A stretch of DNA of 63,184 nucleotides, the filler included, from Dimargaris cristalligena (lineage: Eukaryota), in assembly GCA_003614675.1 (NCBI GenBank). It is 11 parts of 11 records of this genome, joined end to end, with 100 filler letters (N's around TTAATTAATTAA, not from the genome) between each part and the next. Parts side by side here need not be neighbours in the genome. Positions count along the whole stretch, not along the records: positions 57,558 to 63,184 come from ML003600.1; 10 more parts are not named here. One strand, 5' to 3'. The notes beneath the pieces are model-generated. The model was not told where the DNA came from. It made no database searches and worked only from the letters and a program-made list of their open reading frames with translations. Shown piece by piece: positions 34,370 to 63,184 of the stretch (its first letter is position 1; every line of letters begins with the position of its first letter). The translations under genes and the position numbers were made by a program.

Positions 34370-34499
34370 TGTAAAGAACTAAACTCAAATCCTCAAAAAC
34401 TGAACTTTATTTGAAAAGATAGGTGATAAAAGGGAAAGGTAATGATAGACTTGCTATTCCAAGAGGTGGCAGCAAGGGGGAGTATTTATACTTGGAAGT
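34370..34499 (-). mobile_element. LTR family A (partial)
   Basis: Starts TGTAAAGAAC; minus strand has TATAAATA and AATAAA; matches 11577-11692. Confidence 0.82.
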
Positions 34500-40242: not shown

Positions 40243-40343
40243 NNNNNNNNNNNNNNNNNNNNNNNNNNNNNNNNNNNNNNNNNNNNTTAATTAATTAANN
40301 NNNNNNNNNNNNNNNNNNNNNNNNNNNNNNNNNNNNNNNNNNC

Positions 40344-43300: not shown

Positions 43301-45899
43301 GGAGGAGGGGGAAAATACGGTGGGCGGAATACGCCGAAAGGTGATACAGCATGCGGACGACGTCGTGGCGGTTCTATCCGATCTAATGAAAAGCGGTCTA
43401 GTGATCAGCGGAACGAAGTCGGCCTTCGGAATGACGAAGGTAGAGGTGTTAGGGTACATGTGCACAACCGACGGGAGATGCCCGACTGAGTCTAAGGTGA
43501 ACGCCATTCTTGCATGGGAACCACCCACCAACGCGAAGGAAGTGCGATCGTTCATCGCGACGTGCGCGTTTCTGCGAGTCTGGGTTCCCCACTTCTCGAC
43601 TATTGCGGGGCCTCTGTACGCGCTAACTCGGCAGCGGACGACATTCCAGTGGGGCCCCGAGCAGGATAAGGCCTTTCGAACTCTGAAGAGCGCGCTCACC
43701 GAAGCGCCCCTCATCAAAACGCCACGGTACGGAAGTGGCGCGCCACCGTTAGTCCTGACGACGGATGCCAGCCCCACCGGAGCGGGAGCTGTGCTGGGCC
43801 AAACAGACGACGACGGCAACCGATACGTGATACGATACGAGAGCTATCTGTTTTCGGAGCGGGAACGGCGGTACGCGCAGATTAAACGTGAATTGTTCGC
43901 TACTTACATGATGGTGAAAAAATTACGCCGTTACCTGTACGGGACGTTCTTCATACTGGAAATAGACGCCCAACCACTCATCGGCCTGATAAACTGTCCT
44001 GACCTACCTGGAGATGTCGCCAGTCGATGGATCGGGTACTTGAAGATGTTCGACTTTGAGATCCGGCACATAAAGGGAGTGGATAACCCCGTGGCTGACG
44101 CGCTGAGCCGGTTACCCGTGAAGCCGTTAGCGACGCCGCCACATACCAGCCAATTGAAGATTTTCGCTCGAGACGACGTACCGCTACCGAAATTGCGACA
44201 CCTGGCCGACGCAGGGATTGATGTAGTAACTCGCGTTGACGTGCGCTTCGAACCCGGAGAAGCCACTCGCGTACCCACCGGGCTCTACTGCACCCCTCCC
44301 GAGGGGACTTACATACGGGTAGCCGATCGCAGCAGCATGGCGCTTCAGGGATTTCGAGTGGGCGGAGGAGTCATCGACCCGGGGTACACTGGCGAAATAT
44401 GCGTCATAATATCGAACGAGACGAATCGAGTCCAAGACCTTCGCCAAGGAGACCGAGTAGCTCAGCTCATCCTAGAGCGCTTCGCGAAACCGGATGTGAT
44501 TCGAGTGCCAAAGGAAGCTATTCTCGGTGACAGAAGGGGGGCGGGTTTTGGGAGTACTGGAGTAAACGTTGTAAAGAGCGTAGTTTTGACGGACCCCGGA
44601 GATTACCTTGGTGTACACAGCGTGAAACAGGCATGTAGACGGGAGGGTGGTGAATTCGAAGCCATTATCCAATTCCTCCAGAATGGCACCTTCTCGGCTG
44701 AATTAACGACCAGTCAACGTGCTGGGATTCGACACCAATGCACTCGTTACCTGCTGAATGAAGGGCTGCTGTATAAGCGAGAGAGGATTGGGTTGCCGCG
44801 GCGAGTCATCAGTGACCCCGAAGAGCGTCACCGCGTAGTGGTCAGCGTGCACGGGGGGCACCCTAGTGGTCATCGAGGCATAAAAGCAACTCACCGCATG
44901 TGCGCGAACAGATTTTTCTGGCCTAACCTCTATAAGGACGTGGAACGGGTCATCCGAACATGCGACATCTGTCAACGAAATCCCCACGGGTCCGTGCAAG
45001 TGCCGCTCAAAGTGACGACGGGATCCACGATCTTCAGCCGCATCGGCATAGACCTTACTGAACTCGAGGAATCAACGGAGGGGCATCGTTACCTTGTCGT
45101 GGCCCGTGACGATTTAACCGGGTGGGCGGAAGCGCGTGCGCTGAAGGACAAGAGGAGTACGACCGTGTACCAATTCCTATACGAAGACGTCGTATCTCGA
45201 TTCGGAATTCCCGGCGAAATCCTAGCCGATCGCGGTGAGCTCTGGGGGAAGGTGGTGGCGCGGGCTGCTCGGCAGGACGGACTCACCCTGAAGTTCACGA
45301 CGGCGTACCACCCTCAGACGAATGGAATGATTGAACGCGGCCATCGGGACCTCGTCAACTGCTTAAAGAAATTGTGCCAAGAACAGCCCGAAGTTTGGCC
45401 CGGGTTCCTACACGCCGCACTCTGGGCTGACAGAACCACCGTAAAAACCACGACGGGAGTTAGTCCCTATCGCATGGTGTACGGTCAAGACTGCACCCTA
45501 CCGTTCGACCTGCAGGAGCACACCTGGATCAGCCTACCCTGGCGCGACGGAATGACGACCGACGAGCTCCTGCGATGCCGAGCCACTCAACTGAAACAGA
45601 ATTCGTGGCTGCGCGAGGCTGCGGGTATCAATTTGGACACAAATCGTCTACGAGGCAAGAAATATTTTGAACGCCGGCACCCCATACGACAGCAAGGGTT
45701 TCAAGTCGGGGACCTAGTCCTGTTGAAAGATACGCGACTCGCGAAGGTCAAGGGGAAGCTCCGCGCCCGTTGGCGAGGGCCGTACGTAATTGCCACCGTA
45801 GTGCATGACGACGTTTACACCCTTAATGAATTAGACGGTTCAACGTTTAAAGATCCTACTGCTGGGGTCCATTTGCGTCATTACTTCCGATCCGTTTGA
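40344..45899 (+). mobile_element. Ty3/Gypsy single-ORF gag-pol, 5'-partial: Gag(CCHC)-PR-RT-RNase H-dUTPase-IN
   Basis: Frame open from the contig start; CLYCDQPGHFRSDC, LIDTGSEVN, KFDLYSGYDQ, LPMGWANS, LFVDD, TTDASPTGAGAVL, ADALSR, dUTPase motifs, H..H..CDIC, IGID / LADRG / MIERGH, WRGPY. Confidence 0.97.
44154..44561 (+). other. In-frame trimeric dUTPase domain within pol
   Basis: All five motifs: AGID, DRSS, GVIDPGYTGEI, GDRVAQL, RRGAGFGSTG. Confidence 0.95.
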
Positions 45900-46083: not shown

Positions 46084-46402
46084 TCACCACTCAGAGGGAG
46101 GAGGTCGATCCTTTCCATAGTACTCCCCATCTGAGTGATGGAGACCTGTCGGACAACGGCATGAACTACCTATCCCCCCCACTGGAGGAGGACGTCCCTA
46201 CCCCAACGGCACAAGAACAATACCTCTTCTCAGAGGACTAATAATACCCCGCCCGGGTGACCGACTATAGCTCTTTGTCTTCTAAATAAATAATTATTAC
46301 CTTCAATTACTTCGATCTTGTTTTTTACTTCCAACCTGCCCAATTCGGTACTCCCATTATTTCTTTATAGTTACACGGCCCTACTCGGCCTTTATGGTTA
46401 CA
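46084..46402 (+). mobile_element. 5' LTR (partial) of the second Ty3/Gypsy element, ending GGTTACA
   Basis: 319-bp direct repeat of 51406-51724; one difference seen (ttatgg vs ttacgg). Confidence 0.92.
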
Positions 46403-46406
46403 AACT

Positions 46407-46420
46407 TTTATTTAGAAGAC
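46407..46420 (+). promoter_or_regulatory. Putative self-priming primer-binding site
   Basis: TTTATTTAGAAGAC, 4 nt after the LTR, is the exact reverse complement of LTR 46277-46290; no TGG tRNA-type PBS. Confidence 0.75.
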
Positions 46421-46434
46421 CTTAATATATAATT

Positions 46435-47322
46435 ATGTCCTCCATTGAACCAACCCCCCGTGCTCCCACTCAACGACGGATCAGCAACCCACCTTTTGCA
46501 CCCCAGCATGGGCTCCCCTCTGGTGCACTAGACACCCTGATGAAGAATGTCAAACCCTTCTCAGGCAAACCACCGGGCCCTACCTGGAACTCTTGGAAAC
46601 TGTCTCTCAGTGCAACCATCCAAGACTACTACCCCCAGATGGCCGCTGGAGCCCAGTTTCGCTTGACAATTGCCCTACTACAAGATGATATCCGCGACCT
46701 GGTAATCAAATCCGGCAAAGACACCACCGATGATTTCGAGGACTTCATGAAGGCCACCTACCCAATCTCACTATGGGCTGAATACTACGATATGGCATTG
46801 CACTCGGGGACCCTCTTCAAGGGGAAGAACATTTACATTGCCTGCTCCATTGCCAGTGATGCCGCCTGGCAACTTGGAGGAACTAGCCACTGGTGCACCC
46901 AGGTTACAAAAGCCTTGCTTGCCGAGTTTCGTACCCATCTGGAACAAGCACCCCATGAGTTGTGGAACTTCACTGAGTACACGGCAGGGAATATGCCTGA
47001 GCATTTTAAAGCTATCACGCAGGCAGTACTGGCCAGTCAAGCCCGTCAGGCTGCTATTAGGACGGCACCGGGACAGGGTCCACCTTTCCAAGAAACTCGT
47101 GAAGTGGCACACAAAGGTACTAGGGATCTCAGCCCACCGTCGACAGAATCAATTGTGGCAGCAGTACTTGCAGCTCTCCAAGAAAAACCCCCGATGGGTA
47201 ACACAGATGGTCGAAGCAAGAATCGTCGTCGTAAGGATCGCCAAGCTAAAGTAATGGCAGAACTACGAGCTGAGAATGCCCAACTCCAACAGGCTGCAAA
47301 TAACCAACCGGGAAAAGCCTAG
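46435..47322 (+). CDS. gag: Gag, 295 aa, no CCHC knuckle
   Basis: Lies between the PBS and pol; VKPFSG...W..W capsid-like pattern; basic C-terminus. Confidence 0.85.
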   Translation: MSSIEPTPRAPTQRRISNPPFAPQHGLPSGALDTLMKNVKPFSGKPPGPTWNSWKLSLSATIQDYYPQMAAGAQFRLTIALLQDDIRDLVIKSGKDTTDDFEDFMKATYPISLWAEYYDMALHSGTLFKGKNIYIACSIASDAAWQLGGTSHWCTQVTKALLAEFRTHLEQAPHELWNFTEYTAGNMPEHFKAITQAVLASQARQAAIRTAPGQGPPFQETREVAHKGTRDLSPPSTESIVAAVLAALQEKPPMGNTDGRSKNRRRKDRQAKVMAELRAENAQLQQAANNQPGKA

Positions 47323-47340
47323 AGGTGGTAAAGACCCCTC
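47310..47340 (+). promoter_or_regulatory. Putative -1 ribosomal frameshift signal
   Basis: G GGA AAA heptamer in the gag frame; pol is in the -1 frame; hairpin GAGG(T)GGT-AAAG-ACCCCTC starts 5 nt downstream. Confidence 0.75.
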
Positions 47341-50300
47341 CAATACTAGCGGCAATTATTCCTAATAAACCCAGTATTTACCCCTTTACCACCAAAGACA
47401 TCAGTTCACATTGGAGACTACTACAAGAGGCAGCACTCGGCGGAGTCAAAGTTAAGGCAGCAGCAGACCAAGGGGCCTCGACCAGTATCATCACTCGGGA
47501 AGCAGCTACCCGCCTACACCTTAAGATCAACCAACAGGTACGGCCCCATCTACGGGCATTTGGGGGACATAGTTATGCCCCCTCACTAGGTACGGCACGG
47601 GCACGATTTTCCACATCGGAATCATCCAAAAAACGCTGGGTAAAGTTCACTGTTATCGAGGTTGTAGCTGATATTGACGCCTTAATCGGCCGCCATGATT
47701 TAGATGCTCTGGGCCTTGATTTACGACCACCACCTGATCCGACACCAGCTCCCCAAATGGCTACCCCCTTAGGCCAGTCCGAGCTACCTAAAGTTACCCA
47801 AAGGAAAACCCTGGAACCTAGGGGATTACCAGCAGGAACCTTTACCCGAATAAATCCTCACACAGACCTAGAGTTTAAAAGGGCTAATGATCAATACCCC
47901 CTCCCTACCCAGGAAAGTGTGAGGTCGAGACTAAAGGAGCAGCTCCCGTGTGCCCTAAGTAGGAGATCCCTCCTGAGGGAGCTTATGACTGGAGCTCAAT
48001 CTCTTCGAGAGTACCCTCCAAGTTGTCCACCCCCATGTCTACTTAAGCCAATAACTCCCCCTCTGAAACCAGAGGCTAAACTCCTGTATATCCCTCAGGC
48101 CCCCAGGAGCCAGGCAGACCGGGAGTTTATGGATAACTACATTAAGACTCGCCTCCAATATGGAGTAGATGAGCCAGGTTTTGCCCATGCTAACCTGCCG
48201 GTCTACAGCTTACCAAAGCCCAATACCGATGCACGGAGAGTGATCTTAGATGACAGCCAAGGAAGCACTATCAATATGCACTCCTTAGGAATGCAGCTTC
48301 CTAAGCTTCATGAAGTCCGATCCTTTGTATGTGATGCCAAATTAATCACCAGTATTGATTTAGCCTCCTATTTCACGCAGATTAGGCTGGCAGAAGAAGT
48401 CCGGGACTTCTGGACCTTTGATGGTGGGTCCAATGGCCGAGTTCGGGCAGCCCGCCTGGTCCAAGGCAATAGCCAAAGCCCTGCAATAGCACATGCCCTC
48501 CTTATGCATGTGTTCAACAGTATTCCTGACTTACACGGCCGCTTATTAGGGTATATTGATAATATCTACCTGAAAAGTACGAATGGCAATGTCAGAGAAC
48601 ACATTCACGATATTGGCAAACTTGTTAGAAACCTTGCACTATGGGGTCTGACGATTAATATGTCTAAGAGTGAATTTGCGGGCACAAAAAACGTCGAAAT
48701 CTTAGGTTACCGCTGGTCACAAGATAACAGCTGGTCTATCCCAGATCACTGGGTGGCTGACCTCCAACAGCTACCAATGCCCCAAACAGTCAAAGAAATA
48801 CAACGTCTAACTGGTGGCATCAATGCCATATCCGCACATCTCCCATGGGCAGCCGCACTCCTGGCCCCCTTCTACGCCCTAACTGGACTTCACAGATTAA
48901 CCAAGCAGCACCTATCTGATCTCCAACCTCATTGGGAGGGGTTAAAAGAAGCCCTCTTAGACACCCAGCACCTCTATGAACCGAAGCCTGGAGAACCTCT
49001 TACCCTCCGGGTGGATGCAGCAGAGGCAGGAGTAGGGGCTGTATTACTAGCCCACACTAGTGATCAAAAGGACCAGGTAGTAGCCTACTTCAGCAAAGCC
49101 TTTGATGGCCAACAGGGAAGGCGACACCCTGGATTTCGTGAAGCATGGGGCCTAGTTAGGGCAGTACGCCACTTCTATACCTACTTAGATGGTGCAACTA
49201 ACTTAAGGATTGAGGTTGACGCTACTACTGCCTTAGGGCTCTTCAACCACAAGGACACCTGTCAGGCCGATGAATTGGCAGGGTTTCGCATAGAACTGGC
49301 TAAATTAGGAATTCATTCGTACATGATCCACCACCGGCCCGGTGAGATGCACCTTACAGCAGACTGGTTATCACGGGCCCTTCACCGCCAGAGACCCCGC
49401 AAACCTACAAAACCCAAGGTTGAGACTATTGCTGCCGTTGAAATCATTACCAGGGAAAATACTGTTAGTAGTGATGGAGGGGAGGCAATTGATATCTCCC
49501 TAACCTCCGACGATGAAGATAACAACTCAATCTCAGACCCAGCAGAATTTCGAGGCGAGTCCACCATTAGGGCAGCACTTCCCACTACCTGGCGCTGGTC
49601 CATTACCATGGAGGATCAGAAGGGTGATACTAAAATAGGGAGCTGGTATAATCTTTGTCTTCGCCGAGACTCTGAAATTGGTAGGGAGGACCCCCTATTT
49701 ACCGAGGTTAACGGCATGGCCATTCGTAATGGGCTTCTCTGTCAGTTAACTCCGGGAATATTGCCCGGTACCATGGGCAGTTGGGTCCCTCTAGCCACAA
49801 CCCCGATAATGAAAGAGGCTATAGAACACTGGCATGTAGAACTCTGTCACCCAGGTAGAGAACGACTCTTAGCCTTTGCCCAAACTCGTTTATCACACCC
49901 AGCACTCCGAGAGTCCATTGACCAATTCACCAAGACCTGCCACACATGCCAAATTAATGCCATCGCCACTATCCGTAACACTCCTCGATCCACTACCTAT
50001 GGTGACCGGAAACCAGGTGAACACCTCTATCTCGATATTGGCTACATCGGTCAAGTGGGACCAGATGAGGAGACCCAATTCCTCATCATCGCCGATGCCG
50101 CCAGCCGTTTTTACCAGGCCATACCCTTACTACAGTCTACAGCCTCGGACATAGTTGAGGGCTTACGTGATGGCTGGATAGGTACCTTTGGGAAACCCCA
50201 CTTAATCACCACTGATAATGGCCCCCAATTCACGGCAGACATCCTTAAAACCTATCTGGACCATCAAGGGATTCGGCACATATTTTCTTCTCATAGTCAC

Positions 50301-51563
50301 CCTATTTCAGAACTGGCAGAACGATATGTGGGATTGTTAAAAAACTCACTGAGGAAATGCTGGAGTCAATATGGAACCACCGAGGGTTGGACACGCTATC
50401 TCCCTAAAATCACTGCGGCACATGCTATCATACCAGACCCACATACTGGTATCTCACCATGGATGGCGCTTAAGGGAATCGAGTCAACAGTGGACATGTC
50501 ACAATTACTGCTCCATCCCGAGACTGAGGGAGGGCTGGAAGGAGTAGCACATTGGGCCATTAATCAAGCTAAGGAACGTCGTACCCGCGTCCGAAAACAA
50601 GCCATGGAACGGCACAATCAATATGTTACTAGGAGGCAGTATACTGCCGGTCAACTGGTCACTGTCAAGGTAGTACCTAAACCAGCTAACTTAGCTAGTC
50701 GGCCAGAGCGAAGGATGGGGCCATTCCGAGTCTTGGAGCGAGCCGGCCTGTCATACAAACTATCAGACCTCGATGGAAACCCCCGACCCCGAAACATTCA
50801 CGGTGATCTACTCCTCCCTTATTATGTAAGTAATAGCGATGGAGATACCCATTCTGGGGAGATAGAGGTAACACTAAACGGGCCGAGACCATTACCTCCA
50901 GATACCGGTGATGGAGAGGGTCAGAGCAATATCATAGGGGACGCAAATGATGAAGACGAGGGCGGCAGAAGTGACGAAGACCAGACTAATCACACCAACG
51001 GACCCCGAAACACTGGGAGCGATGAAACGGACATATCACCAAGAAAGCCGCGATCTCCAACTGGTAACTCAGAAGATGAATATAATAGCGAAAGTGAGGA
51101 TTTGGAGGAAGAAACATATCAATGGTTCACCTCTGAGTCGGACTCGGAATATCTATCAGATATTTGCCCAGAGCAGACGCCACTGGACGTACATACCCAT
51201 GGCACCAAGAGACAAGCTTCACAGTCCCCTACATTGGCTGAAGCATCTCACCCTACTCGCCAAAGGCTACGCGAGTCGACCAGTCCCACTCTCCTAGCAT
51301 TCCCGCATCTTCGGGAAAAGCTGAACCAAGAGGTCCGGGATTCACAAGTCATAACTTCCGAGGATGAGGAATTGCCCTGGAGTATTGTGCAACCAAGGGC
51401 GACCGTCACCACTCAGAGGGAGGAGGTCGATCCTTTCCATAGTACTCCCCATCTGAGTGATGGAGACCTGTCGGACAACGGCATGAACTACCTATCCCCC
51501 CCACTGGAGGAGGACGTCCCTACCCCAACGGCACAAGAACAATACCTCTTCTCAGAGGACTAA
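47310..51563 (+). CDS. pol: Pol (PR-RT-RNase H-IN plus ~240-aa acidic tail), highly divergent
   Basis: ADQGAS..IGRHDL (protease); SIDLASYFTQ, LVQGNSQSP, GYIDN, ILGY (RT); RVDAAEAGVGAVL, TADWLSR (RNase H); H..HPG..CHTC, LYLD / TDNGPQF / AER (integrase); MGPFRV. Confidence 0.92.
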   Translation, partial: GKSLEVVKTPPILAAIIPNKPSIYPFTTKDISSHWRLLQEAALGGVKVKAAADQGASTSIITREAATRLHLKINQQVRPHLRAFGGHSYAPSLGTARARFSTSESSKKRWVKFTVIEVVADIDALIGRHDLDALGLDLRPPPDPTPAPQMATPLGQSELPKVTQRKTLEPRGLPAGTFTRINPHTDLEFKRANDQYPLPTQESVRSRLKEQLPCALSRRSLLRELMTGAQSLREYPPSCPPPCLLKPITPPLKPEAKLLYIPQAPRSQADREFMDNYIKTRLQYGVDEPGFAHANLPVYSLPKPNTDARRVILDDSQGSTINMHSLGMQLPKLHEVRSFVCDAKLITSIDLASYFTQIRLAEEVRDFWTFDGGSNGRVRAARLVQGNSQSPAIAHALLMHVFNSIPDLHGRLLGYIDNIYLKSTNGNVREHIHDIGKLVRNLALWGLTINMSKSEFAGTKNVEILGYRWSQDNSWSIPDHWVADLQQLPMPQTVKEIQRLTGGINAISAHLPWAAALLAPFYALTGLHRLTKQHLSDLQPHWEGLKEALLDTQHLYEPKPGEPLTLRVDAAEAGVGAVLLAHTSDQKDQVVAYFSKAFDGQQGRRHPGFREAWGLVRAVRHFYTYLDGATNLRIEVDATTALGLFNHKDTCQADELAGFRIELAKLGIHSYMIHHRPGEMHLTADWLSRALHRQRPRKPTKPKVETIAAVEIITRENTVSSDGGEAIDISLTSDDEDNNSISDPAEFRGESTIRAALPTTWRWSITMEDQKGDTKIGSWYNLCLRRDSEIGREDPLFTEVNGMAIRNGLLCQLTPGILPGTMGSWVPLATTPIMKEAIEHWHVELCHPGRERLLAFAQTRLSHPALRESIDQFTKTCHTCQINAIATIRNTPRSTTYGDRKPGEHLYLDIGYIGQVGPDEETQFLIIADAASRFYQAIPLLQSTASDIVEGLRDGWIGTFGKPHLITTDNGPQFTADILKTYLDHQGIRHIFSSHSHPISELAERYVGLLKNSLRKCWSQYGTTEGWTRYLPKITAAHAIIPDPHTGISPWMALKGIESTVDMSQLLLHPETEGGLEGVAHWAINQAKERRTRVRKQAMERHNQYVTRRQYTAGQLVTVKVVPKPANLASRPERRMGPFRVLERAGLSYKLSDLDGNPRPRNIHGDLLLPYYVSNSDGDTHSGEIEVTLNGPRPLPPDTGDGEGQSNIIGDANDEDEGGRSDEDQTNHTNGPRNTGSDETDISPRKPRSPTGNSEDEYNSESEDLEEETYQWFTSESDSEYLSDICPEQTPLDVHTHGTKRQASQSPTLAEASHPTRQRLRESTSPTLLAFPHLREKLNQEVRDSQVITSEDEELPWSIVQPRATVTTQREEVDPFHSTPHLSDGDLSDNGMNYLSPPLEEDVPTPTAQEQYLFSED

Positions 51564-51724
51564 TAATACCCCGCCCGGGTGACCGACTATAGCTCTTTGT
51601 CTTCTAAATAAATAATTATTACCTTCAATTACTTCGATCTTGTTTTTTACTTCCAACCTGCCCAATTCGGTACTCCCATTATTTCTTTATAGTTACACGG
51701 CCCTACTCGGCCTTTACGGTTACA
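50867..51724 (+). mobile_element. 3' LTR; 51406-51724 shown by repeat identity, start at 50867 inferred
   Basis: PPT GGGGAGATAGA (50856-50866) then GGTAACACTAAACGGGCCGAG, an imperfect inverse of the LTR end CTCGGCCTTTACGGTTACA. Confidence 0.65.
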
Positions 51725-53493: not shown

Positions 53494-56102
53494 ATGGTAG
53501 TTGATCTAAGCGGCCTTTCGAACAAGGCCAAGAACCCCGTGGCCCCGCCCAGCGGCCTGCCTACCCTTCGGCGTCCCTCCGCCATTCCCGCTCCCACCGC
53601 GGGTGCCCCCACCGTCCTTCGGCCCCCGTCCTCCTTACCCAGAGCCCCGCCTCCCGCCGCGATAGCCGACTCCGCCAGCAACCCCGCGAGCGACACTTCG
53701 GCCGGGAAGAAGCGGAAGGTCATTGAAAGCCCCGTTGCCACTAACCGCATCCAGCGGCTCAAGTTGACTGCCAGTCCCTACCGGCGGGCATCCATACGGT
53801 CGTCCCTTCGCATCAAGAACTCCCCCCGCATGGCCCGTGCTGTCCTGGGTGCTCGCAAACCGCTGGGCCGGACCTTGGCTAACCGCACCACCGTAACCCC
53901 TCTGACATCGGCCGCCCACACCGCCGCTAAGCGATCCCAGACCGCCCTTTCCAAACCCGGATCCACCGCCGCCATGACCCGTTCCTCCGCCCCGCGGCCC
54001 GGTGCCCCTTCGCTAAAATCAACTGGCGCCTCTAACCCACCCGCATCCACCGATGGTCTAGCCCGGCCGAAGCCCAAGCCCAAGCGCAACGCCTGGGATC
54101 TCAAAGTAAGTTAATGTGGATCTTATCCGGATATATTGACCCGGATCAATGTCCATCTGATCTCGGTGGGCCCGAACTTCTTTGGTCCATGGCCTCCAGG
54201 GCATGCCTTGCCCCCTATCTAAAGCGCTGTTCTGCCTGAATGGCCAATTTATTGAACCTTCCGGCCTGGCCTTTCCCATGGAGACCACGGACCACTAATG
54301 ATTAACACATTCCAATACCGCATTGATGTCTATATTATGTTGACCATTCACTTCTCCAGGGGCGGCTTCAGGATATGGAGGAGCACGCGTCGGACCTCGC
54401 CCAGCAGCTCAAGGAGAACACCGATCGCATGGGCGCCCTCCAGTCCCAGCTGGACTCCAGCGGGGCCAAAATCCTCGATTTGGAAACCTCCGGCCAGAGT
54501 CTCCAGTCCGCCATACTAGCCAAGGAGCAGGAAAACGCGTCACTAACTCGCCAACTCGCCGAGCTGCAATCTGCGATGGATCAGGTCAAGCAGGTCCACG
54601 ACCGGGAGGTGGCCCAGGTTCGTTTCCAGTATAGCGAGCAAGTGGCGGGCCTCGAAGCCTCCCAGGCGGGGTTACAGCGCGAACTCCAGGGCCTTCAGGA
54701 GGATCTGCGGCTCACCGAAGAGAGCCTACGCCTGCAGCGTGACGAAAACACCCAGCTCAAGGGTACCATCGCCCAGCAGTCCACCACCTACGAGGTCCTT
54801 GAGGGCACGTGCCAGGCCCTGCGCCGGCAATTGAGCTCCACCGAAGACACCCTGGCCCAGAGGGAGGCGCGGATCGCCGACTTGGAAGTGCAGCTGGCTG
54901 CCTCCCACGACTTGACCGCTGACCTTGAGGCCCGCCTCCGCGACGAGGAAACCACCCGGCGCCGTCTCCACAATACTATCCAAGAGCTCAAGGGCAACAT
55001 TCGGGTGTTTTGCCGCGTCCGCCCCATCCTGCCGTCCGACGGCCTCGCAACCGCTGACGGTGCCCCCGCCTCCGACTCAATGCCCCATATTCGCTATCCG
55101 GAACCCAATGAAATTGAAATCATCCAAACTACCGAGTCCGCCTCTAGTGGCAAGACTACCGCTAAAGCGATACCCTTCAGCTTCGACCGCGTTTTCCCGC
55201 CCCGCACCGATCAGTTGGCGGTTTTCGAGGAAATTGCCCAGCTGGTCCAGTCCGCCTTGGATGGCTATCCCGTCTGCATCTTCGCCTACGGCCAAACCGG
55301 AAGCGGCAAGACACACACCATGGAAGGGCCCGACCACCCCACTGAGGCCACCATGGGTATGATCCCCCGCGCAGTGCGCCAGATTTACGCCGGCGCCGAA
55401 GCCCTCAAGGCCAAAGGCTGGGTCTACACCATGGAGGGCCAGTTTTTGGAGATTTACAACGAGGCCATCCACGACCTGCTCGTGGAGTCCCCCGCCTCTT
55501 CCGCCGGCGGCAACGGCACGAGTCCCAGCGGAGGGGTCAGTACCCGGAAGCACGAAATCCGGCATATCACTGCAAGTAAAACCATCGTGACGGACGCCAC
55601 CTCCGTCGTCATGGACTCGTCCGACCAGGTCCACACCCTCCTCAAGCGGGCGTCCAAGAACCGGGCCGTGGCCGCCACCAACTGTAACGAACGGTCATCC
55701 CGCAGTCACAGCGTGTTTACCCTGCGTTTGACGGGCCGTAATTCGGCCAGCGACGAGGTGAGCGAGGGGGTCCTCAATCTCATTGACCTGGCTGGTTCCG
55801 AGCGACTTTCCCAGTCGGGCTCCACCGGGGACCGCCTCAAAGAAACCCAGGCCATCAACAAGAGCCTGAGTTGTTTGGGGGACGTTATTTACGCCATTGC
55901 CAACAGGGACAGCCATGTGCCTTACCGGAACTCCAAGTTAACCTACCTACTGCAGAACTCGCTGGGCGGCAACAGCAAGACCCTCATGTTCGTCAACATG
56001 TCGCCGCTGGCGAACAATCTCCAGGAAACCCTCTGCTCATTGCGGTTCGCCACCAAGGTCAATTCGTGCCACATTGGGACAGCCCGTCGCAACCTTAAGT
56101 AA
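53494..56102 (+). CDS. KAR3: Kinesin-14 (Kar3/KlpA/KIFC1-like); exons 53494-54105 and 54360-56102
   Basis: Splice restores AWDLKGRL; coiled coil; LHNTIQELKGNIRVFCRVRP, FAYGQTGSGKT, NERSSRSH, LIDLAGSER, HVPYRNSKLT; C-terminal motor. Confidence 0.95.
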
Positions 56103-57350
56103 CCCGCCAGTCGCTTTTTATTTTACGCCCCCACTTCGCTTGGACATGTGGTTATGATCAGTGCCCTGTGGGCCATTCGGCCTGACCCGTTTTTCCTTTT
56201 CATTGTCCTGGCGCCCCCTTGTTATCCCCCGCCACCCACTGATGCGCCATGTTCGCTGGGTTATAACCCCCTATTCCTATAATATCGATTTGCTGTAAAT
56301 GTCATTCCCGACCCATCCACCACTCCCACCTTTATAATTTATACAATAACCATTTAGTAGTATACCACTCTCCATAGCATTATGATTCAATATCATTTAG
56401 TTTATCCTTGCGCTTTGGACAATGTCCGCTTTTTCTGGAGATGGTGAGTGACGGGGATCTGGGCCAATGCTGCCCCTCCCGATCTTTCGCAAAGCGGCAC
56501 CTTTTTTTTCCATCTAGTATCGTAGCTATAGTGTTCAAGAGTCAGGCCAATGCCGGGGTCTCATTGCCCGAATTCGGGATTGGAGTCATACAATTGACGG
56601 GCCAGAACTGCCAATGGAGAGGCTATGGTAATATTGCCACGGTGATGGACGGTCTCATTAGGACGAAAGGGGGCCAAGGCTCGATTCCAATAGTACACAG
56701 GTCGGGCAGATATTGAAATGGTTCTTGTGCACTAACAGCCTTATACACGAATTTTAGCAAACAATGAGAGGATATGGCCTCAGGTAAATGGGGGAGGCTG
56801 GGTAATGTTGAGTGGAACTTGAGTGGTAATAAAATGAGCTTTTCACCATTACAGGTTGGTTTCTATGGAGAATGTGCCATTGAGGGAGGCAGCCCAAGTT
56901 CAATGAGTAAAGTATCTGATAACAATTATCCATTTGTAGTACAGGGCAGCTCCATGTTCAACACAGTGGGCTGGGAGAGATGCAAGGTTGGCTTAGCACC
57001 CATCTCAGGCTGCTTCAACACCTTGGTGCAGGGCCCCAACATCAAAGGTTTCAGGATGTTTAGGAATATGGATTGGGTGGCATCAGGGGCACTGAAACTA
57101 ATGGTAGATGAAGGGTATAAACATAGGAAATAGAATAGCTGAAGTGCTTAAAATAATACTAGTAATAAAAATAAAGTTTTATTGAATATGGATAATAGAT
57201 TCAAATAGAGCATGTCAACTTCATTTGGTAGTAACTCTGCTACTTACTCCATAAAATTCCATCATTTTAATATGCAAATTCAGATACTACAGAAAATGCT
57301 AGCTATAATGTCGAAGTAGGTATAAAAAAATCGGTAGGAAGCTATGATGG

Positions 57351-57447
57351 TGTAAAGAACTGAACTCAAATCCTTGAAAACTGAACTTTATTTAAAAAGA
57401 TAGATAATAAAAGGGAAAGGTGATGATAGACTTGCTGTTCCAAGAGG
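57351..57447 (-). mobile_element. LTR family A (partial); similarity stops just before a new TGT at 57449, possibly a nested insertion
   Basis: Matches 34370 onward and 11577-11692. Confidence 0.8.
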
Positions 57448-57557
57448 CTGTATAATGNNNNNNNNNNNNNNNNNNNNNNNNNNNNNNNNNNNNNNNNNNN
57501 NTTAATTAATTAANNNNNNNNNNNNNNNNNNNNNNNNNNNNNNNNNNNNNNNNNNNN

Positions 57558-57669
57558 AAAAATCCACTTGATGAGGCAAATACTACTGGTTGAAAATAAA
57601 CATCCCACCGATTTTCCCATACACATATCAGTTAAACCCTTATACAGCCAAGCTGAACTTCACCCATAT
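57558..57669 (-). repeat. Partial copy of the ~144-bp palindromic element
   Basis: Ends TTATACAGCCAAGCTGAACTTCACCCATAT; 57568-57617 is identical to 63135-63184. Confidence 0.85.
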
Positions 57670-58819
57670 CCTCTCCCCCTTCTCTATATTATATACCCCT
57701 ATTATTATCCATCTTTTATATCGATATGTTTTGGCCCGAATTCCTGTATGATGACTGGGTTATAATTCACTCTCTACCGTAATCAGCGCGATGTGTATGC
57801 CTACGGCGTTTAGAAACGCACTTTATGATGTCTTTTTATATGCTTGAATAAATAAAACAAATACTTTAATAATCCGTGCCGTTTCGGCCAGTATGGAAGT
57901 ATGATGGCCTTACTAGACAATGGTAATTGAAGGCTGGACTATTGTAGTTAAGTGAATTATAGAGGTGGCACCTTTCCCCGCTGGAGTTGGTTTCCAGCGA
58001 TATATTTACGAGAAATCCAGGTACGGTCTAACGGCCCTCCCCAATATGCCTTATACACCACCCCTTTTAAAATAATTGTCGTATAGGAAATGGGGGTCTA
58101 TAAGAACGCCCCGCACTATTTAGATTACAATGTAATAACGCTGTCCATCACCAATTTCAGTAACTGAGATAGCTCGAGTCAATATTCTCGACCATAATAC
58201 ATTTATTACAGACGGTTAATGGGCAATCATCATATATATATATACTATGTATCGTTCGTTTTCTAGTTGGCGGGCGCTATTTCCACCTGGTACATATACG
58301 CAGTCTAGCGGCGAGCTTTCTTGGTGGGAAGGGGCCACTGATACAAATCGATAAATTAAATTGTATTGGCATTTTTGACTTTCCTACGAGTTTACGGCTC
58401 AATCCCCGCTGGGCCATGTGATAAACCAACCTCCGCCTTCTTGACTGGCTATTCAATTTACCCTTTTTAGCCTCCTTAATACTACCCAGTGCAACGAGTA
58501 CCCAGAACACCGCTATTACCCAGGTTATGTCGATGAATACGCTACAAGATGATCGCACATAAAGTGCCTGGGTTAGGCATATACAAAGAAGGCCGCTTAA
58601 AGTAAGCATCCCTAAAAACTAAAAAACTGTATTTAGCCATATTAATTCACTTCTTCGACCCTGTAGAACAGTTGTATTAGGATATCATTGTGAATAAGAT
58701 CGATTGACTATATTAATAGGGCGATTAATGGCATGTGTAAAATACCGACAGGCTAGTTCAATAAAATACGATAGGAAAATAATTATGCGAATACAAGGGA
58801 GAAGGAGATGGGGGGGGGA

Positions 58820-60407
58820 CTAGTCACTCATTAGTTTTACCAAGTCGGCGTCATCCACCTCCGGTTTAGTTTCGGCCAAATTCTTGAACTTGGCGAACAA
58901 GCACTTGAAGTTCTCCCGCGAAATACTGGTGTAGCCCAACATATTAAGTCGGGACATGAGAGCGGTCCGGCCACTCTGAGCGGACAGGATGAGGGCGTCA
59001 CTGGTGGCGCCCACGTCGGCGGGATTAAGGTATTCGTAGGTCATCCGATTCTTTAACATGCCGTCCTGGTGAATCCCGGACGTGTGTCGGAATACATTGC
59101 GTCCCACCACGGGTTTATTGGCGGCCAGGGCCATGCCGCTTTGGGCAGAGACCATTCGGCAGACCCGCGTTAGGAGGGGCGTGTTGAGGTGGTGGATGGC
59201 ATGGTAATGGGCGGCATGCGTGGTGAGGCACATGGCCACTTCCTCCAAAGCGGCGTTGCCGGCTCGTTCGCCGATTCCGGTCAGGGTTACATCCACCACG
59301 GTGGCTCCTGCCTCAATACCCGCCAGGGTGTTGGCGACTCCGAGGCCCAAATCATTGTGCGTATGGACTCCCCAGCGCGCCTAAGAAATCCACAGTTAAA
59401 GACCAGGAATGACAATCCCAAAAAAATAATACGGGAATAACCAAATTAGGTGTTAGTGATATGGGGCTAGACGGATACGCTCCAGTATGAATGCTGGAGC
59501 ACATGGGACGGCTAAAAAATAGACGTTCCCCCGAAAGCCAGTCGGTGAAACCGTATCCATCTTGGAACGGGTGGGGTCACCTGAGGCTGGATCGATCGCC
59601 CCCAGCACCCTGTTTAAAAACAGGATACGGCCATGCGGCTCAACAACACGGGGGCAGGCTGATTCAGTTTATTTTAACCGTCCAGAGCGGCATTAGCATA
59701 CGCCAATAGGGGTGAGAGGGGGACGGTGTTACAATATATTGCACATCAGGGGCTCCCCTGCAGCTTACCTTCTCGGAATTAGGTGTGCGCTCGATACAAT
59801 GCTTGACCATCTGGTGAAACTCGGCCGGGATACAGCTCCCCACGGTGTCCGTAATTACCACCAGATTGGCACCCTCATCGATCGCAGCTCCGAATACCTC
59901 GCACAGGAAGTCCGGGTCGGTACGGCCCCCGTCTTCGGCTCCAAACACCACTTCCGGAGTCAAAGTCCGGGCCAGCCGAACCCCTTCCCGTACCCGACGG
60001 ATGCATTCGTCGCGGGAGATGCGGAGCTTGTGCTGCAAGTGAATATCGGACGTGGCGATAAAAAGGCGGAGTTGGCAGCGGGGGGCGTCGCGGATGGCCT
60101 CAAAAGTGCGCAAAATATCGCTCTCGATGGTCCGGCACAGCGCGCAAATCATAGCGGGTTGGCCAATGTGCTCGCGGTGGGTCATGTGGTTGCCGACCTC
60201 GCGGGCAATGCGCCGGCAAGTATTGAAGTTCTGTTCCGAAGAGACGGGAAAGCCGGCCTCGATCATGTCGACCCCCAGCTCCGCTAGTCCCCGGGCGATT
60301 TCCACCTTGGCGTCGGGGGTGAATTGGACCCCGGGGGCTTGTTCGCCGTCCCGCAGGGTGGAATCGCCGAACAGGATAAGCTTGGGTTCCGCGTTATTAG
60401 ACAACAT
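58820..60407 (-). CDS. 2-isopropylmalate synthase-like (bacterial/plant LeuA type) DRE-TIM enzyme, 399 aa, no C-terminal regulatory domain; exons 60407-59769 and 59380-58820
   Basis: DSTLRDGEQAPG, EAGFP, FIATSDIH, AEDGGRTD, DTVG, HTHNDLG, GIGERAGNAALEE, NKPVVGRNVFRHTSGIHQDG; phase-0 GTAAGC..TTAG intron. Confidence 0.9.
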
Positions 60408-63092
60408 ACTTACAATACAAGGTTGAGTGAGGGGGAGTGCTTGGTTTAAGCCGCAAAACCCAGAACACTAATAGGTAAGGAAGCTAATGGGTGATGGGCA
60501 GTAACGGAGACGAATATTGAGGAGTGTAGGTACCTAATTGAAAACCTAAGGAGTAACAAAGCAACCTGCTTGACATTTTAGGAAGGGGGGCCGGGTGCAT
60601 TATATATACAAGCGAGAGGGTATGTAACCCTCGCCTAAAGCCAACCTCTGTACGTCCCTAGCGGTGGACATTGGGGTAGAGAATTAAATAGGGGGGTAAA
60701 CCACACGGTTTAGCTCCCAGGTTAACCATGGGCGATCCTTCTCCACGATATTAGATTGACCAACCTACACAAGGCTCTGAGTAACCGAACCTATGTAGCG
60801 CATGCTGTTCCGTCACCGGGTGCCGGAGCACTATGACGCCGACTCAGCCGCACAGATGGCTTGCGCTGTGCCTCCCTCCCCCTTGCATGGTTGGTTCTGT
60901 AGCGAGCTATCCAGGGAAGAAGCCGCTTCTCCTTTTCCTCATATTATCTTGTGGAGTCACCTCTTAACTTTTCCGCCGGCTTTTGAGAACAATGGTCTAC
61001 ACCTAAGTTCATTATTCCGGAGCATAACCATAAAGAGGGGGGGTTCTTTTTTTGGGGGGGGGGGCAACCACCACGAGTATGGCTTGGGAAACCAGTATTT
61101 GGTTAATAGTTGAGATGACCAAGGGGTGCGGATACAACTGGCGCAGCGCATTTGGAAACTTAGCCTAACATATCCTTGCGTGGCCCTAACCCGGTATATG
61201 ATATAGGTGGTGCTGGCAATCGTAGCACTGCCCTCAACTATCGGATCAGTAAAGAAGTACGGGGCATTACTGGCATCGAAATGGACTCTAGCCGCTAAAA
61301 TAGTGCCTAGGAAGCTGTAAGGCCAAACCGGACCTTTGTAGGGACACGCGGCGGTCCTTTGTGCGCACGGCATACCTATATTTATCCAACTACTCGATAT
61401 ACAAATTAATGTAAGAGTGGCAATGCAAGCTGTCCCTTTATTCATCTGAGTCTACACAATATCCGGTTTCAGGCGTGGGTACAGTGTCCGGGTCAGATGG
61501 TTCATTTTACAACACCACCCCTCGTAGTATTCCAATCATCGCGTTTATTGAGTTACTTAATACAACAATAAAATTACACTACAGTATAGAGCTGATTATT
61601 GTGACCCAATATGCCCAGCGAAACGAGACACTATCCAGGAGTAAGTCCCGATTATTATAATACCTGAATAGCACACAATCCCTTTTCGGAATCAGTTCAC
61701 CCGGGAGCTATGGATGCCAAGGTCGTATCTACCGAGAAGCACTAACATAAATAAGCCGTGTTTTTGTCTGAACGAATTTCGATCGGGTGATGGAGATGGA
61801 GATGGCCTTGGACGGGTCTGCGTTTAATTACACACCCCTCCCTCGGATCAAAATTACCGCTATATTTCACCAACCGGCCCCATGTCCAACATGGAATTGG
61901 ACTATTCATATTGACTAATACATGTGATTCACAGGAGATTATTTCTAAAAATAACCTGAATTCCGATATATTACATGGTCTCCTCCGAAAATATTCAATA
62001 ATTAAATGAATTGAATTGAGAGAGAAAATAACGCATTTCAACTTGCAACCCTCAGGGGGGGCGAACGGTCCCGGGTTTGGATGATCCCTTATCTCGACCA
62101 ATGAGAACGCTCCATCTAACCCCCTCACTATAGCGGCCCCTTCAGAACAAGCAGCGAACGGTAGTTGCTCTATCCAGACACTAGAATTATAGACATAAAA
62201 AGGAGTAACGACTTGGGTACTCAAAAGACCTTCATGTTTCAGTAAAGTACTTATTATAATTACAATCTTATTCTCAAAACCCTACTCAGTATTATTGGTT
62301 ATCTGTCCCCACTCGGCACCCCATTACAAACTGAGTCACCTCGTCAATTTACGAATCATTTGCCTAGATGTCCCGGCTCATCCCCACTCCATTACAATTA
62401 GTAACTCTAATCCTCATGAATTTCAACCACAGTGGCTATGCAGGCGAATCACACCCACCCACTAGGGTTGCTGAATTTCCTCCCTCCCCCTTCCTAATAT
62501 ACCCCCCTATCGGTTGGTTAGCCCAATATGGCAGACAATTAGGGGGTACCAACACTGCCATAAGCCACATGGACAAGTAAATATGTCTCTAATGACTGGA
62601 CAAGCCCGAGTTGAGAGATGCCAATAATGTGAGCCAAAGCTACATTAAACCTTGTGCCGGTATGGCTATTAAAATAGCAACTGTCGGGCTCACTCGCTAC
62701 GCCTGCAAATTTCCCTGGATGTTACATATTTTGGGAGGAAGTGTGGATGGGGGGGGAAGATGGCTGATTGGAATGTATGAGTGTGTTGCATGGACAAGTT
62801 CTCAATTTACTCCTTTTCAGAGGCAATAGCTGTTTCCCTTTAACTGAAGGCTAAGAGCTATATTTCTTGCAAAAACCACCCTCCCCTCCTGTACTGCCCG
62901 CCGCTGCTAGGCACTCCAAAGCACATACCATACGATAAGTGTCGTTCAGGTATAGGCACTAACCGGTTGGTGAAGTATCCACATCAAGTGCTGTTCGTTG
63001 TTATAAATATATGGCATTCCTAGTCGGAGAAAAACTATTCTGTATTTATTTAAACATAAGTGCAATAATCGTACCACTGGACTTATTTATGT

Positions 63093-63184
63093 ATATGGGA
63101 GTAGTTCAACAAGGCTGTATAACGAAAAGTCCATTTGATGAGGCAAATACTACTGGTTGAAAATAAACATCCCACCGATTTTCC
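63093..63184 (-). repeat. Partial copy of the ~144-bp palindromic element, same orientation as the 57558 copy
   Basis: Starts ATATGGGAGTAGTTCAACAAGGCTGTATAA; 50-bp identity with 57568-57617. Confidence 0.85.

What the first reader, a model, noticed from the sequence alone, without database searches (positions are those of the whole stretch)
58820..60407. LeuA-type synthase that stops just before the leucine-feedback domain
Seen: 399 aa ending ...EVDDADLVKLMSD*, with no convincing further exon. Known: zygomycetes and chytrids use the plant/bacterial IPMS type rather than Leu4; plant MAM synthases arose from IPMS by losing this domain; fungal homocitrate synthase has LREGEQ and HKAG, not seen here. 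Several usual residues differ (LRLF for IHTF, VVFGAED, ITDTVGS). Inference: a feedback-free paralogue with altered 2-oxoacid specificity, convergent with MAM.
Basis: partly seen in the sequence, partly recalled or inferred. Interest (0 to 1): 0.6.

Follow-up and report, generated by a model that had tools for sequence, protein, structure and literature searches.

The report
Fungal LeuA paralogue without leucine-sensing domain
This is a real two-exon gene of the mycoparasitic fungus Dimargaris cristalligena: an extra copy of the first enzyme of leucine synthesis that has lost its leucine-sensing tail and rebuilt its substrate pocket, much as plants did to make glucosinolate and aroma enzymes.

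Summary
Minus-strand exons 60407-59769 and 59380-58820 are joined by a 388-nt GT..AG intron. They give a 399-aa protein identical to NCBI models RKP33728.1/KAJ1979055.1 of Dimargaris cristalligena.

It has the HMGL-like barrel and the post-catalytic subdomain but no LeuA_dimer domain. No trace of that domain lies anywhere in the window.

The same species also has a canonical 561-aa LeuA with the domain, so this gene is an extra paralogue.

It belongs to a fast-evolving clade found only in Dimargaritales, with three copies each in D. cristalligena and Tieghemiomyces. A second short clade occurs in Dimargaris, Tieghemiomyces and Dispira.

All metal and catalytic residues are kept. The positions that set substrate preference in plant MAM synthase and IPMS are all changed: H to R114, E to V154, S to G156, N to V184, P to T186.

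Best reading: a leucine-insensitive 2-oxoacid:acetyl-CoA condensing enzyme with a new, unknown substrate. It is convergent with plant MAM, CMS and IBMS.

Interest is moderate.

The parts
59769..60407 (-). Exon 1, codons 1-213 (ATG at 60407-60405). Encodes the N-terminal two thirds of the HMGL-like TIM barrel, including LRDGEQ (R19, D20), R114, V154, G156, E158, V184, T186 and T188.
59381..59768 (-). Intron, 388 nt, GT..AG, phase 0.
   Evidence: sequence. The joined exons equal P0003. The junction aligns without a gap to relatives. No Rfam family was found in 56000-63184.
58820..59380 (-). Exon 2, codons 214-399 plus TAG (58822-58820). Encodes the rest of the barrel (H219, H221), the post-catalytic subdomains (H317 in GIHQDG) and the natural C-terminus ...LVKLMSD.
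59162..60371 (-). Region encoding the Pfam HMGL-like domain (aa 13-286); it spans the intron.
   Evidence: 262.7 bits. Coordinates were computed from the exon map.
58865..59110 (-). Region encoding Pfam HCS_D2, the post-HMGL subdomain (aa 304-385). The protein ends 14 residues later, where full-length relatives continue into the linker and LeuA_dimer domain.
60066..60068 (-). Codon of Arg114. This position is His in canonical LeuA and Val182 in BjMAM1-A. Arg was not seen here in any of the 150 nearest cluster representatives.
59850..59858 (-). Codons V184-I185-T186, which replace the canonical N-[IL]-P of the NIPDTVGY strand (Ala253 and Pro255 in BjMAM1-A).
59940..59948 (-). Codons V154-F155-G156, which replace the canonical E-F-S (Glu223 in BjMAM1-A; Gly229, invariant in MAMs, in AtMAM1).
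56103..58819 (.). AT-rich, repeat-bearing non-coding stretch between the stop codon and the convergent kinesin gene. It holds no regulatory-domain coding sequence.

Best explanation
The gene encodes a regulatory-domain-less descendant of the fungal (plant/bacterial-type) 2-isopropylmalate synthase LeuA. It arose by duplication of the LeuA gene in the Dimargaritales lineage. It then lost the C-terminal LeuA_dimer (leucine-binding) domain, evolved several-fold faster than its parent, and was duplicated again. It most likely still catalyses the Claisen-type condensation of acetyl-CoA with a 2-oxo acid on a divalent metal held by D20, H219 and H221. R19 and T188 would hold the oxo acid, and E158 and H317 would act in catalysis. 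It would not be inhibited by leucine. Its side-chain pocket has been rebuilt (R114, V154, G156, V184, T186, S191, T220, D243), so the preferred substrate is probably no longer 2-oxoisovalerate. A larger or differently charged 2-oxo acid is more likely, which would make this the entry step of a chain-elongation (homologation) route in specialised metabolism. Shown here: gene structure, domain content, existence of the full-length paralogue, conservation of the clade, and which residues are kept or changed. Inferred: activity, lack of feedback, changed substrate and pathway role.
For: Gene model: one search shows it is identical to P0003, which is deposited under one RKP (RKP33728.1) and one KAJ (KAJ1979055.1) accession.

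Domains: HMGL-like and HCS_D2 only in P0003, P0004, P0005 and P0417. The species' P0168 also has LeuA_dimer.

NCBIfam: P0003 falls below all 12 listed cut-offs, and P0168 passes NF002086 and TIGR00973.

No regulatory-domain remnant lies in the 63-kb window.

Best solved relative: the regulatory-domain-less plant MAM synthase 6E1J, E 9e-100, aligned over residues 12-397.

Catalytic residues: the BjMAM1-A residues named in PMC8468904 (Arg89, Asp90, Thr257, His288, His290, Glu227, His388) map to R19, D20, T188, H219, H221, E158 and H317 by the alignment. They are kept in all six clade members.

Specificity residues: the four BjMAM1-A substrate-preference residues (Val182, Glu223, Ala253, Pro255) map to R114, V154, V184 and T186. 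In the 26 other rows these positions are H 26/26, E 26/26, N 26/26 and P 26/26. The Ser equivalent of G156 is S in 25/26. None of the six clade members keeps any of these.

Among the 150 nearest cluster representatives, position 114 is H in 134 and R in none.

Of 205 columns at least 90% conserved in 32 canonical rows, 10 are fixed to a new residue in all six clade members and 43 are diversified. These cluster at 112-117, 154-160, 181-191, 217-220 and 240-247, the barrel strands that carry the pocket positions named above.

Clade: monophyletic at 100/100. Each genus's three copies are monophyletic. The Dimargaris-Tieghemiomyces path is 0.86 in the short clade against about 0.24 for the full-length orthologues.

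Fungal origin: the insert motif is shared with fungal LeuA. The Tieghemiomyces short and full-length genes have consecutive accessions and share a longest-contig length. The top non-clade hit in the library of 1.84 billion representatives is Dimargaris full-length LeuA (51%, 419.7 bits). The AU test does not reject a sister relation to Dimargaritales LeuA (p 0.555).
Against: There is no biochemical or expression evidence.

The window shows no neighbouring isomerase, dehydrogenase, aminotransferase or NRPS gene. The nearest genes are a kinesin and a copper-fist factor.

Truncating bacterial IPMS abolishes catalysis, according to the titles of Huisman et al. 2010 and 2012, seen only in reference lists. 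Loss of the domain alone therefore does not guarantee an active enzyme.

Leu90, which faces the substrate in IPMS (PMC12961565 Table 1), is retained. Activity on branched-chain oxo acids is therefore not excluded.

One paralogue (P0005) has LRDGAQ and Asn instead of Arg114.

The tree cannot place the clade. The AU test also fails to reject grouping with the 10 bacterial rows (p 0.439).
Confidence: 0.6

Rival explanations
1. It is still an isopropylmalate synthase acting on 2-oxoisovalerate. It would be a feedback-insensitive isozyme that lets the fungus overproduce leucine or leucine-derived products, like tomato IPMS3 or the banana splice isoform.
For: Its best family matches are all LeuA models. 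All catalytic residues and Leu90 are retained. Plant precedents for feedback-free IPMS forms exist (listing and abstracts). In PMC6603273 IPMS enzymes are said to keep nearly identical specificity despite moderate identity.
Against: H, E, N and P at the four MAM preference positions are each 26/26 among the other rows, and the nearby Ser is 25/26. All five are replaced here, and they differ among the paralogues. The 11 short Mucoromycota models that keep the canonical pocket show what a merely shortened LeuA looks like. The species already has a canonical LeuA.
Confidence: 0.17
2. The short copies are catalytically dead or decaying duplicates under relaxed constraint, or have some non-enzymatic role.
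For: The clade evolves about 3.6 times faster than the full-length orthologues. It has lost a domain that bacterial IPMS needs for catalysis (titles in reference lists). The gene lies in a repeat-rich, gene-poor stretch. P0005 has lost the Glu of LRDGEQ.
Against: Frames of 399-425 aa are intact in ten clusters across three genera. All seven catalytic and metal residues are kept in all six R-type proteins. 89 of the 205 strongly conserved columns are unchanged in all ten short proteins, and 10 new residues are fixed across both genera. This points to purifying selection after the change. The changes concentrate on pocket strands rather than being spread evenly.
Confidence: 0.12
3. It is an annotation or assembly artefact: the gene really continues into a regulatory-domain exon that was missed.
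For: No RNA evidence could be obtained. Twenty masked 44-nt runs of N lie in the window, two of them about 1.3 kb downstream of the stop.
Against: No regulatory-domain signal was found in any frame of the whole window. The protein is deposited under one RKP and one KAJ accession as the same 399-aa sequence. Six clade members and four members of the second clade in other genera end at the same place. The masked runs are too short to hide a domain of about 130 aa.
Confidence: 0.03

Closest known systems
Canonical LeuA / 2-isopropylmalate synthase of the same fungus (P0168, RKP38653.1, 561 aa) and of other zygomycetes (the Phycomyces leuA type, PMC2904702)
   Same: Same fold, same catalytic and metal residues, and the same fungal insert EVG..M..RE..G. 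It is 51% identical, and it is the likely parent gene.
   Different: The window's protein lacks the LeuA_dimer domain and fails the NCBIfam cut-offs. It has R/V/G/V/T where LeuA has H/E/S/N/P, and it evolves about 3.6 times faster.
Plant methylthioalkylmalate synthase (BjMAM1-A, PDB 6E1J; AtMAM1)
   Same: It is the best solved match (E 9e-100). Both derive from IPMS by duplication, lost the regulatory domain, and were remodelled at the same pocket positions. This includes the Ser-to-Gly change that is invariant in MAMs.
   Different: The origin is independent: a fungal clade, not Brassicales. The residues differ (R114/V154/V184/T186 against V/E/A/P), and an Arg in the pocket has no counterpart in MAM. 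The substrate is unknown.
Other regulatory-domain-less IPMS derivatives: apple citramalate synthase (cluster of P0265, among the 150 nearest representatives), tomato IPMS3, patchouli isobutylmalate synthase, banana splice isoform
   Same: The same evolutionary route from primary to specialised metabolism through loss of feedback control (listings and abstracts only).
   Different: These are plant lineages, and their pocket signatures differ (P0265 reads YCTVETTYCEA at the 11 positions tabulated).
IPMS-like enzymes of amino-acid homologation feeding NRPS products: fungal echinocandin homotyrosine pathway and cyanobacterial HphA
   Same: These are LeuA-family condensing enzymes that add acetyl-CoA to a non-leucine oxo acid for a peptide natural product (PMC7778625 passages; PMC12961565 passages and Table 1). 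D. cristalligena carries a lineage-specific expansion of 27 NRPS genes (PMC6784888 passage).
   Different: No sequence comparison with those enzymes was made here. The pocket residues differ from HphA (A/D/A/M/S against L/V/G/V/D at the five tabulated positions). No gene cluster is visible in this window.
Second short LeuA clade of Dimargaritales ('FMW' type: P0389, P0243, P0417, P0418, P0419)
   Same: Also 411-425 aa, without LeuA_dimer, ending at the same boundary and found in the same fungi. It groups with the window's clade at 100/99, although the tool warned of long-branch attraction.
   Different: The pocket is different: F-[LM]-W-G-E-V-A-S-C-E-E. Identity to the window's protein is 48%.

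Membership tests
LeuA / 2-isopropylmalate synthase, bacterial-plant type (TIGR00973, NF002086) | HMGL-like TIM barrel with R-D metal/substrate motif, HxH, catalytic Glu and His | tested here: met
   Pfam PF00682 scores 262.7 bits. R19, D20, E158, T188, H219, H221 and H317 align to the BjMAM1-A residues named in PMC8468904.
LeuA / 2-isopropylmalate synthase, bacterial-plant type (TIGR00973, NF002086) | C-terminal LeuA_dimer allosteric domain (PF08502) | tested here: not met
   Absent from P0003 and present in P0168 at 389-540. No remnant was found in the window.
LeuA / 2-isopropylmalate synthase, bacterial-plant type (TIGR00973, NF002086) | Whole-protein score above NCBIfam equivalog cut-off | tested here: not met
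   NF002086 scores 464.8 against a cut-off of 532, and TIGR00973 scores 436 against 598.7. The full-length paralogue scores 695 and 636.2.
LeuA / 2-isopropylmalate synthase, bacterial-plant type (TIGR00973, NF002086) | Canonical substrate-pocket residues (L, H, E, S, N, P, Y at query positions 90, 114, 154, 156, 184, 186, 191) | tested here: not met
   Only L90 is kept. The others are R, V, G, V, T and S.
LeuA / 2-isopropylmalate synthase, bacterial-plant type (TIGR00973, NF002086) | Condenses 2-oxoisovalerate with acetyl-CoA and is inhibited by leucine | not testable with these tools
   Needs an enzyme assay.
MAM-synthase-like, i.e. an IPMS-derived specialised-metabolism synthase (works-like comparison) | Paralogue of a retained canonical IPMS, regulatory domain lost | tested here: met
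MAM-synthase-like, i.e. an IPMS-derived specialised-metabolism synthase (works-like comparison) | Substitutions at the substrate-preference positions (BjMAM1-A 182, 223, 253, 255; AtMAM1 Gly229) | tested here: met
   All five positions are changed, and G156 matches the invariant Gly of MAMs. The other residues differ from MAM.
MAM-synthase-like, i.e. an IPMS-derived specialised-metabolism synthase (works-like comparison) | Member of the Brassicales MAM clade | tested here: not met
   It forms a Dimargaritales-only clade (100/100) with fungal features. It is a convergent analogue, not a member.
Homocitrate synthase (TIGR02146 LysS_fung_arch; TIGR02660 NifV) | Score above the family cut-off | tested here: not met
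   254.5 against 413.55, and 289.4 against 462.9.
   The query has L/V/G/V/D. LRDGEQ is present and LREGEQ absent.
Citramalate synthase (TIGR00977) | Score above the family cut-off | tested here: not met
   193.5 against 450.

The most novel reading that the evidence does not exclude
Dimargaritales mycoparasites may have built a family of leucine-blind 'gatekeeper' synthases from the ancestral plant/bacterial-type LeuA. D. cristalligena has at least four: three Arg-pocket copies and one aromatic-pocket copy. These would start 2-oxo-acid homologation routes supplying non-proteinogenic (homo-)amino acids, or alkylmalates, to the lineage-specific expansion of 27 NRPS genes used against their fungal hosts. 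Arg114 would select an acidic or aromatic side chain that no characterised LeuA-family enzyme binds in this way. If so, this would be the first chain-elongation pathway of this kind in early-diverging fungi and a third independent invention, after plants and cyanobacteria/Ascomycota.
Probability: 0.22. Interest if true: 0.7.

Novelty: new variant of a known kind. Interest (0 to 1): 0.5.

Why it matters
Loss of the allosteric domain plus re-lining of the same few pocket positions is the textbook route by which plants turned IPMS into MAM, citramalate and isobutylmalate synthases.

Finding the same route taken independently, and repeatedly, in an early-diverging fungal order shows that the path is highly repeatable. 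It also provides natural variants, including an Arg-containing pocket, for engineering 2-oxo-acid elongation.

It flags a likely specialised-metabolism entry enzyme in Dimargaris, a mycoparasite noted for an unexplained NRPS expansion.

It also warns that all these genes are currently named '2-isopropylmalate synthase' in the databases. Counting them as such would mislead metabolic reconstructions of leucine synthesis in these hard-to-culture fungi.

Tried and rejected
Whole-genome search for paralogues and for LeuA_dimer: no genome is held for this window. Paralogues were found through the protein databases instead.

RNA evidence: no RNA holder was listed for 58300-60900.

Earlier scan notes: none fit this genome or topic. 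The two word-sharing notes concern other genomes and did not bear on this gene.

First tree: the careful search for 41 rows by 536 columns did not finish, and only its quick tree was seen. It was replaced by careful trees on the catalytic part alone.

Placement of the clade: AU tests rejected neither a sister relation to Dimargaritales LeuA (p 0.555) nor grouping with bacteria (p 0.439). Fungal origin therefore rests on the shared insert, the intron, the apparent gene adjacency in Tieghemiomyces and best-hit ranking, not on the tree.

Recent bacterial HGT: considered and judged unlikely for those reasons, but not excluded by the AU test.

Homocitrate, NifV or citramalate synthase identity: rejected on cut-offs and pocket residues.

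Biosynthetic cluster in the window: not seen.

Rfam in and around the intron: nothing found.

Low-scoring tblastn pile-ups at about 15500, 50500 and 54000: all had E above 0.4, consistent with chance.

Literature: no paper in the library holds both 'Dimargaris' and 'isopropylmalate'. A broader search for IPMS with zygomycete taxon names listed 10 of 630 papers, none of which held the enzyme term.

Not attempted: structure prediction, homodimer prediction and the ESM Atlas. The 9e-100 match to a solved structure already fixes the fold, and those tools return no pocket geometry.
Full report
WHAT IS THERE

On the minus strand an ATG at 60407 opens a 213-codon exon that ends at 59769. A GT..AG intron of 388 nt follows (59768-59381, read). 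A second exon of 186 codons runs from 59380 to a TAG at 58822-58820.

Joined in a script, the exons give 399 residues identical to database protein P0003. That protein is deposited as RKP33728.1 and KAJ1979055.1 of Dimargaris cristalligena. The junction aligns without a gap to every relative examined. Most 300-nt bins within the exons have GC of 0.57-0.62, against 0.28-0.47 downstream of the stop.

The window is clearly fungal nuclear DNA. It holds ELP1, MGM101, an OHCU decarboxylase, a PIN-domain protein, a copper-fist factor, a kinesin and two Ty3/gypsy elements.

DOMAINS AND THE MISSING TAIL

Pfam finds HMGL-like (13-286) and the post-catalytic HCS_D2 subdomain (304-385), and nothing else. 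The best NCBIfam models are all bacterial-type LeuA, matched over profile positions 5-383 of 516. The protein stays below every curated cut-off: 464.8 against 532 for NF002086. It is also below the cut-offs for NifV, LysS, citramalate synthase and the short archaeal and Leptospira IPMS models.

The tail is not hiding nearby. tblastn with 103 full-length relatives gave 48 HSPs that start beyond query residue 370, the best at E 0.07 at 25344-25532, and no cluster downstream of the stop. A profile built from the last 170 residues of 273 full-length proteins was run over 2578 six-frame segments. It matched only exon 2 itself (16.6 bits, from the overlapping last helices). The next hit had E 2.6, and the positive control scored 181 bits.

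IT IS A PARALOGUE, NOT THE ONLY LEUA

A search seeded with the Smittium homologue returned canonical full-length LeuA proteins with PF08502:
- D. cristalligena: P0168, 561 aa, and P0235, 577 aa.
- D. verticillata: P0173.
- Tieghemiomyces parasiticus: P0172.

P0168 carries LeuA_dimer at 389-540 and passes the LeuA equivalog cut-offs, scoring 695 and 636.2.

A CONSERVED, LINEAGE-SPECIFIC FAMILY

The closest relatives of the window's protein are two more D. cristalligena proteins (P0004, 399 aa; P0005, 401 aa) and three T. parasiticus proteins (404-410 aa). All lack PF08502.

The T. parasiticus proteins each occur as near-identical pairs. This fits the probable non-haploid state reported for that assembly (PMC9866270 passage).

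In a careful ML tree of the catalytic part (32 rows, 399 columns), the six form a clade with 100/100 support on a 0.75 stem. Each genus's three copies are monophyletic. The Dimargaris-Tieghemiomyces path is 0.86 in this clade against about 0.24 for the full-length orthologues, so the clade evolves roughly 3.6 times faster.

HMMER against 1.84 billion cluster representatives found only one cluster of this type, represented by P0008. The next hits were Dimargaris full-length LeuA (51%, 419.7 bits) and Coemansia LeuA.

A second short clade came to light. It comprises P0389/P0243 (D. verticillata and another Dimargaris record), P0417 (425 aa), P0418 (Tieghemiomyces) and P0419 (Dispira simplex). 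P0417 is a Dimargaris protein also held in EukProt, so I take it to be D. cristalligena; that is an inference.

This second clade ends at the same boundary and groups with the first at 100/99. The tool warned that long branches meet there.

ORIGIN

The trees cannot place the family. The AU test does not reject a sister relation to Dimargaritales LeuA (p 0.555; that tree is in fact 0.06 log-likelihood units better). It also does not reject grouping with the ten bacterial rows (p 0.439).

Other evidence favours a fungal duplication:
- The gene has a spliceosomal intron.
- The clade carries the eukaryote/Chloroflexi insert in its fungal form (EVGPLMEGRE.IG in the Tieghemiomyces copies), whereas Chloroflexi have a version one residue shorter.
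- In T. parasiticus a short copy and the full-length gene have consecutive accessions (KAJ1914872.1 and KAJ1914871.1; likewise KAJ1919222.1 and KAJ1919223.1) and the same longest-contig lengths. This suggests a tandem pair, though it is an inference.

THE ACTIVE SITE

The best solved match is the plant MAM synthase 6E1J (E 9e-100, residues 12-397).

PMC8468904 (passages and figure legend) names Asp90, His288 and His290 as metal ligands, Arg89 and Thr257 as substrate contacts, and Glu227 and His388 as candidate catalytic residues. By the alignment these correspond to D20, H219, H221, R19, T188, E158 and H317. All are kept in all six clade members.

The same paper names Val182, Glu223, Ala253 and Pro255 as the residues that guide substrate preference. 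They correspond to R114, V154, V184 and T186.

In the other 26 rows, these positions are H, E, N and P in 26 of 26. The neighbouring Ser is present in 25 of 26. [quoted passage not shown] The six clade members keep none of these residues and differ from one another at three of the positions.

Among the 150 nearest representatives, position 114 is His in 134 and Arg in none. The canonical 11-residue signature occurs in 45.

Of 205 columns at least 90% conserved in 32 canonical rows:
- 89 are unchanged in all ten short proteins.
- 10 are fixed to a new residue in all six R-type proteins.
- 43 are diversified, in clusters at 112-117, 154-160, 181-191, 217-220 and 240-247.

This is the pattern expected for retained chemistry with a rebuilt and still diversifying pocket. 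It is not the pattern of random decay.

INTERPRETATION

The most likely reading is a leucine-insensitive acetyl-CoA:2-oxo-acid condensing enzyme whose substrate is no longer 2-oxoisovalerate. I give this 0.6.

The replacement of E, S, N, P and Y by smaller residues enlarges the pocket. The Arg could pair with a distal carboxylate or stack on an aromatic ring. That is speculation.

The protein is not a homocitrate synthase by the tabulated HCS residues or by the family cut-offs.

A link to the 27 lineage-specific NRPS genes of D. cristalligena (PMC6784888 passage) is attractive. It would be analogous to the IPMS-like step of homotyrosine synthesis (PMC7778625 passages) and to HphA (PMC12961565). 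Nothing in this window supports it, because no pathway genes lie nearby.

Rivals, with my confidence in each:
- An IPMS with unchanged substrate but no feedback: 0.17.
- An inactive or decaying copy: 0.12. This is supported by the fast rate and by reports that truncated bacterial IPMS is inactive; I saw only the titles of those papers in reference lists.
- A missed exon: 0.03.

COMPARISON AND NOVELTY

The kind of event is well known in plants: MAM, apple CMS (its cluster, P0265, is among the 150 nearest representatives), tomato IPMS3, patchouli IBMS and banana isoforms (listings and abstracts).

The background fact that non-Dikarya fungi use the plant/bacterial LeuA type is in PMC2904702.

No paper in the library holds both 'Dimargaris' and 'isopropylmalate', and the databases label all these genes simply '2-isopropylmalate synthase'. 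I therefore rate the finding as a new variant of a known kind. It is an independent fungal instance, with an Arg-bearing pocket not seen among its nearest relatives and with a family expansion in mycoparasites. Interest is 0.5.

LIMITS

No whole genome was held. No RNA run was listed. No DNA of the paralogues was available for dN/dS or for intron comparison. Supplementary tables of the cited genome papers were not opened; they may list gene-family counts that bear on the expansion.

Noticed in passing
window 46084-51705: A Ty3/gypsy retrotransposon (ORF 47304-51563 with RT, RNase H and integrase) is bounded by 300-nt direct repeats at 46084-46383 and 51406-51705. The repeats are 100% identical, so the insertion looks very young. 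The repeat ends abut masked N runs, so the LTRs may be longer.
   Followed up: partly
window 40299-45899: A second gypsy-type polyprotein ORF of 1866 aa carries a dUTPase domain (aa 1294-1421) between RNase H and integrase. This is an unusual accessory domain for a fungal LTR element.
   Followed up: no
window 57558-57617, 63125-63184, 5600-5659, 23299-23363; also 57342-57447 vs 34361-34466: Copies of a dispersed repeat flank the LeuA-like gene on both sides (97% identity over 60 nt, cut off by a mask and by the window end). Weaker copies lie elsewhere. The gene sits in a repeat-rich, gene-poor stretch.
   Followed up: partly
window 58811-58819: A run of nine G (C on the coding strand) starts directly after the stop codon. 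It lies 3' of the stop, so it cannot affect the reading frame.
   Followed up: yes
window, 20 runs of 44 N in pairs about every 5750 nt (e.g. 57458-57501, 57514-57557): Regularly spaced masked stretches, 880 N in all. None overlaps the gene.
   Followed up: yes
database proteins P0421, P0424, P0425, P0428, P0429, P0432, P0433, P0435, P0447, P0485, P0228: Eleven Mucoromycota gene models of 402-415 aa also lack LeuA_dimer but keep the canonical pocket. The eight that were put in the tree nest inside the canonical Mucoromycotina (Mucorales-plus-Bifiguratus) LeuA clade. Several genera share a C-terminal ...HVEL. They may be real shortened orthologues or a shared annotation habit at a conserved intron; this was not resolved.
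   Followed up: partly
database proteins P0061 and P0126 (Smittium mucronatum, OLY85313.1 and OLY85314.1): A separate, recent (79% identical) short copy lies next to the full-length LeuA by accession and contig length. Its pocket is nearly canonical, with L to F and S to G. This looks like an independent, earlier stage of the same process, or a truncated duplicate.
   Followed up: partly
database protein P0005 (third D. cristalligena paralogue): It has LRDGAQ instead of LRDGEQ and Asn instead of Arg at position 114, so it may differ in activity from its two sisters.
   Followed up: no
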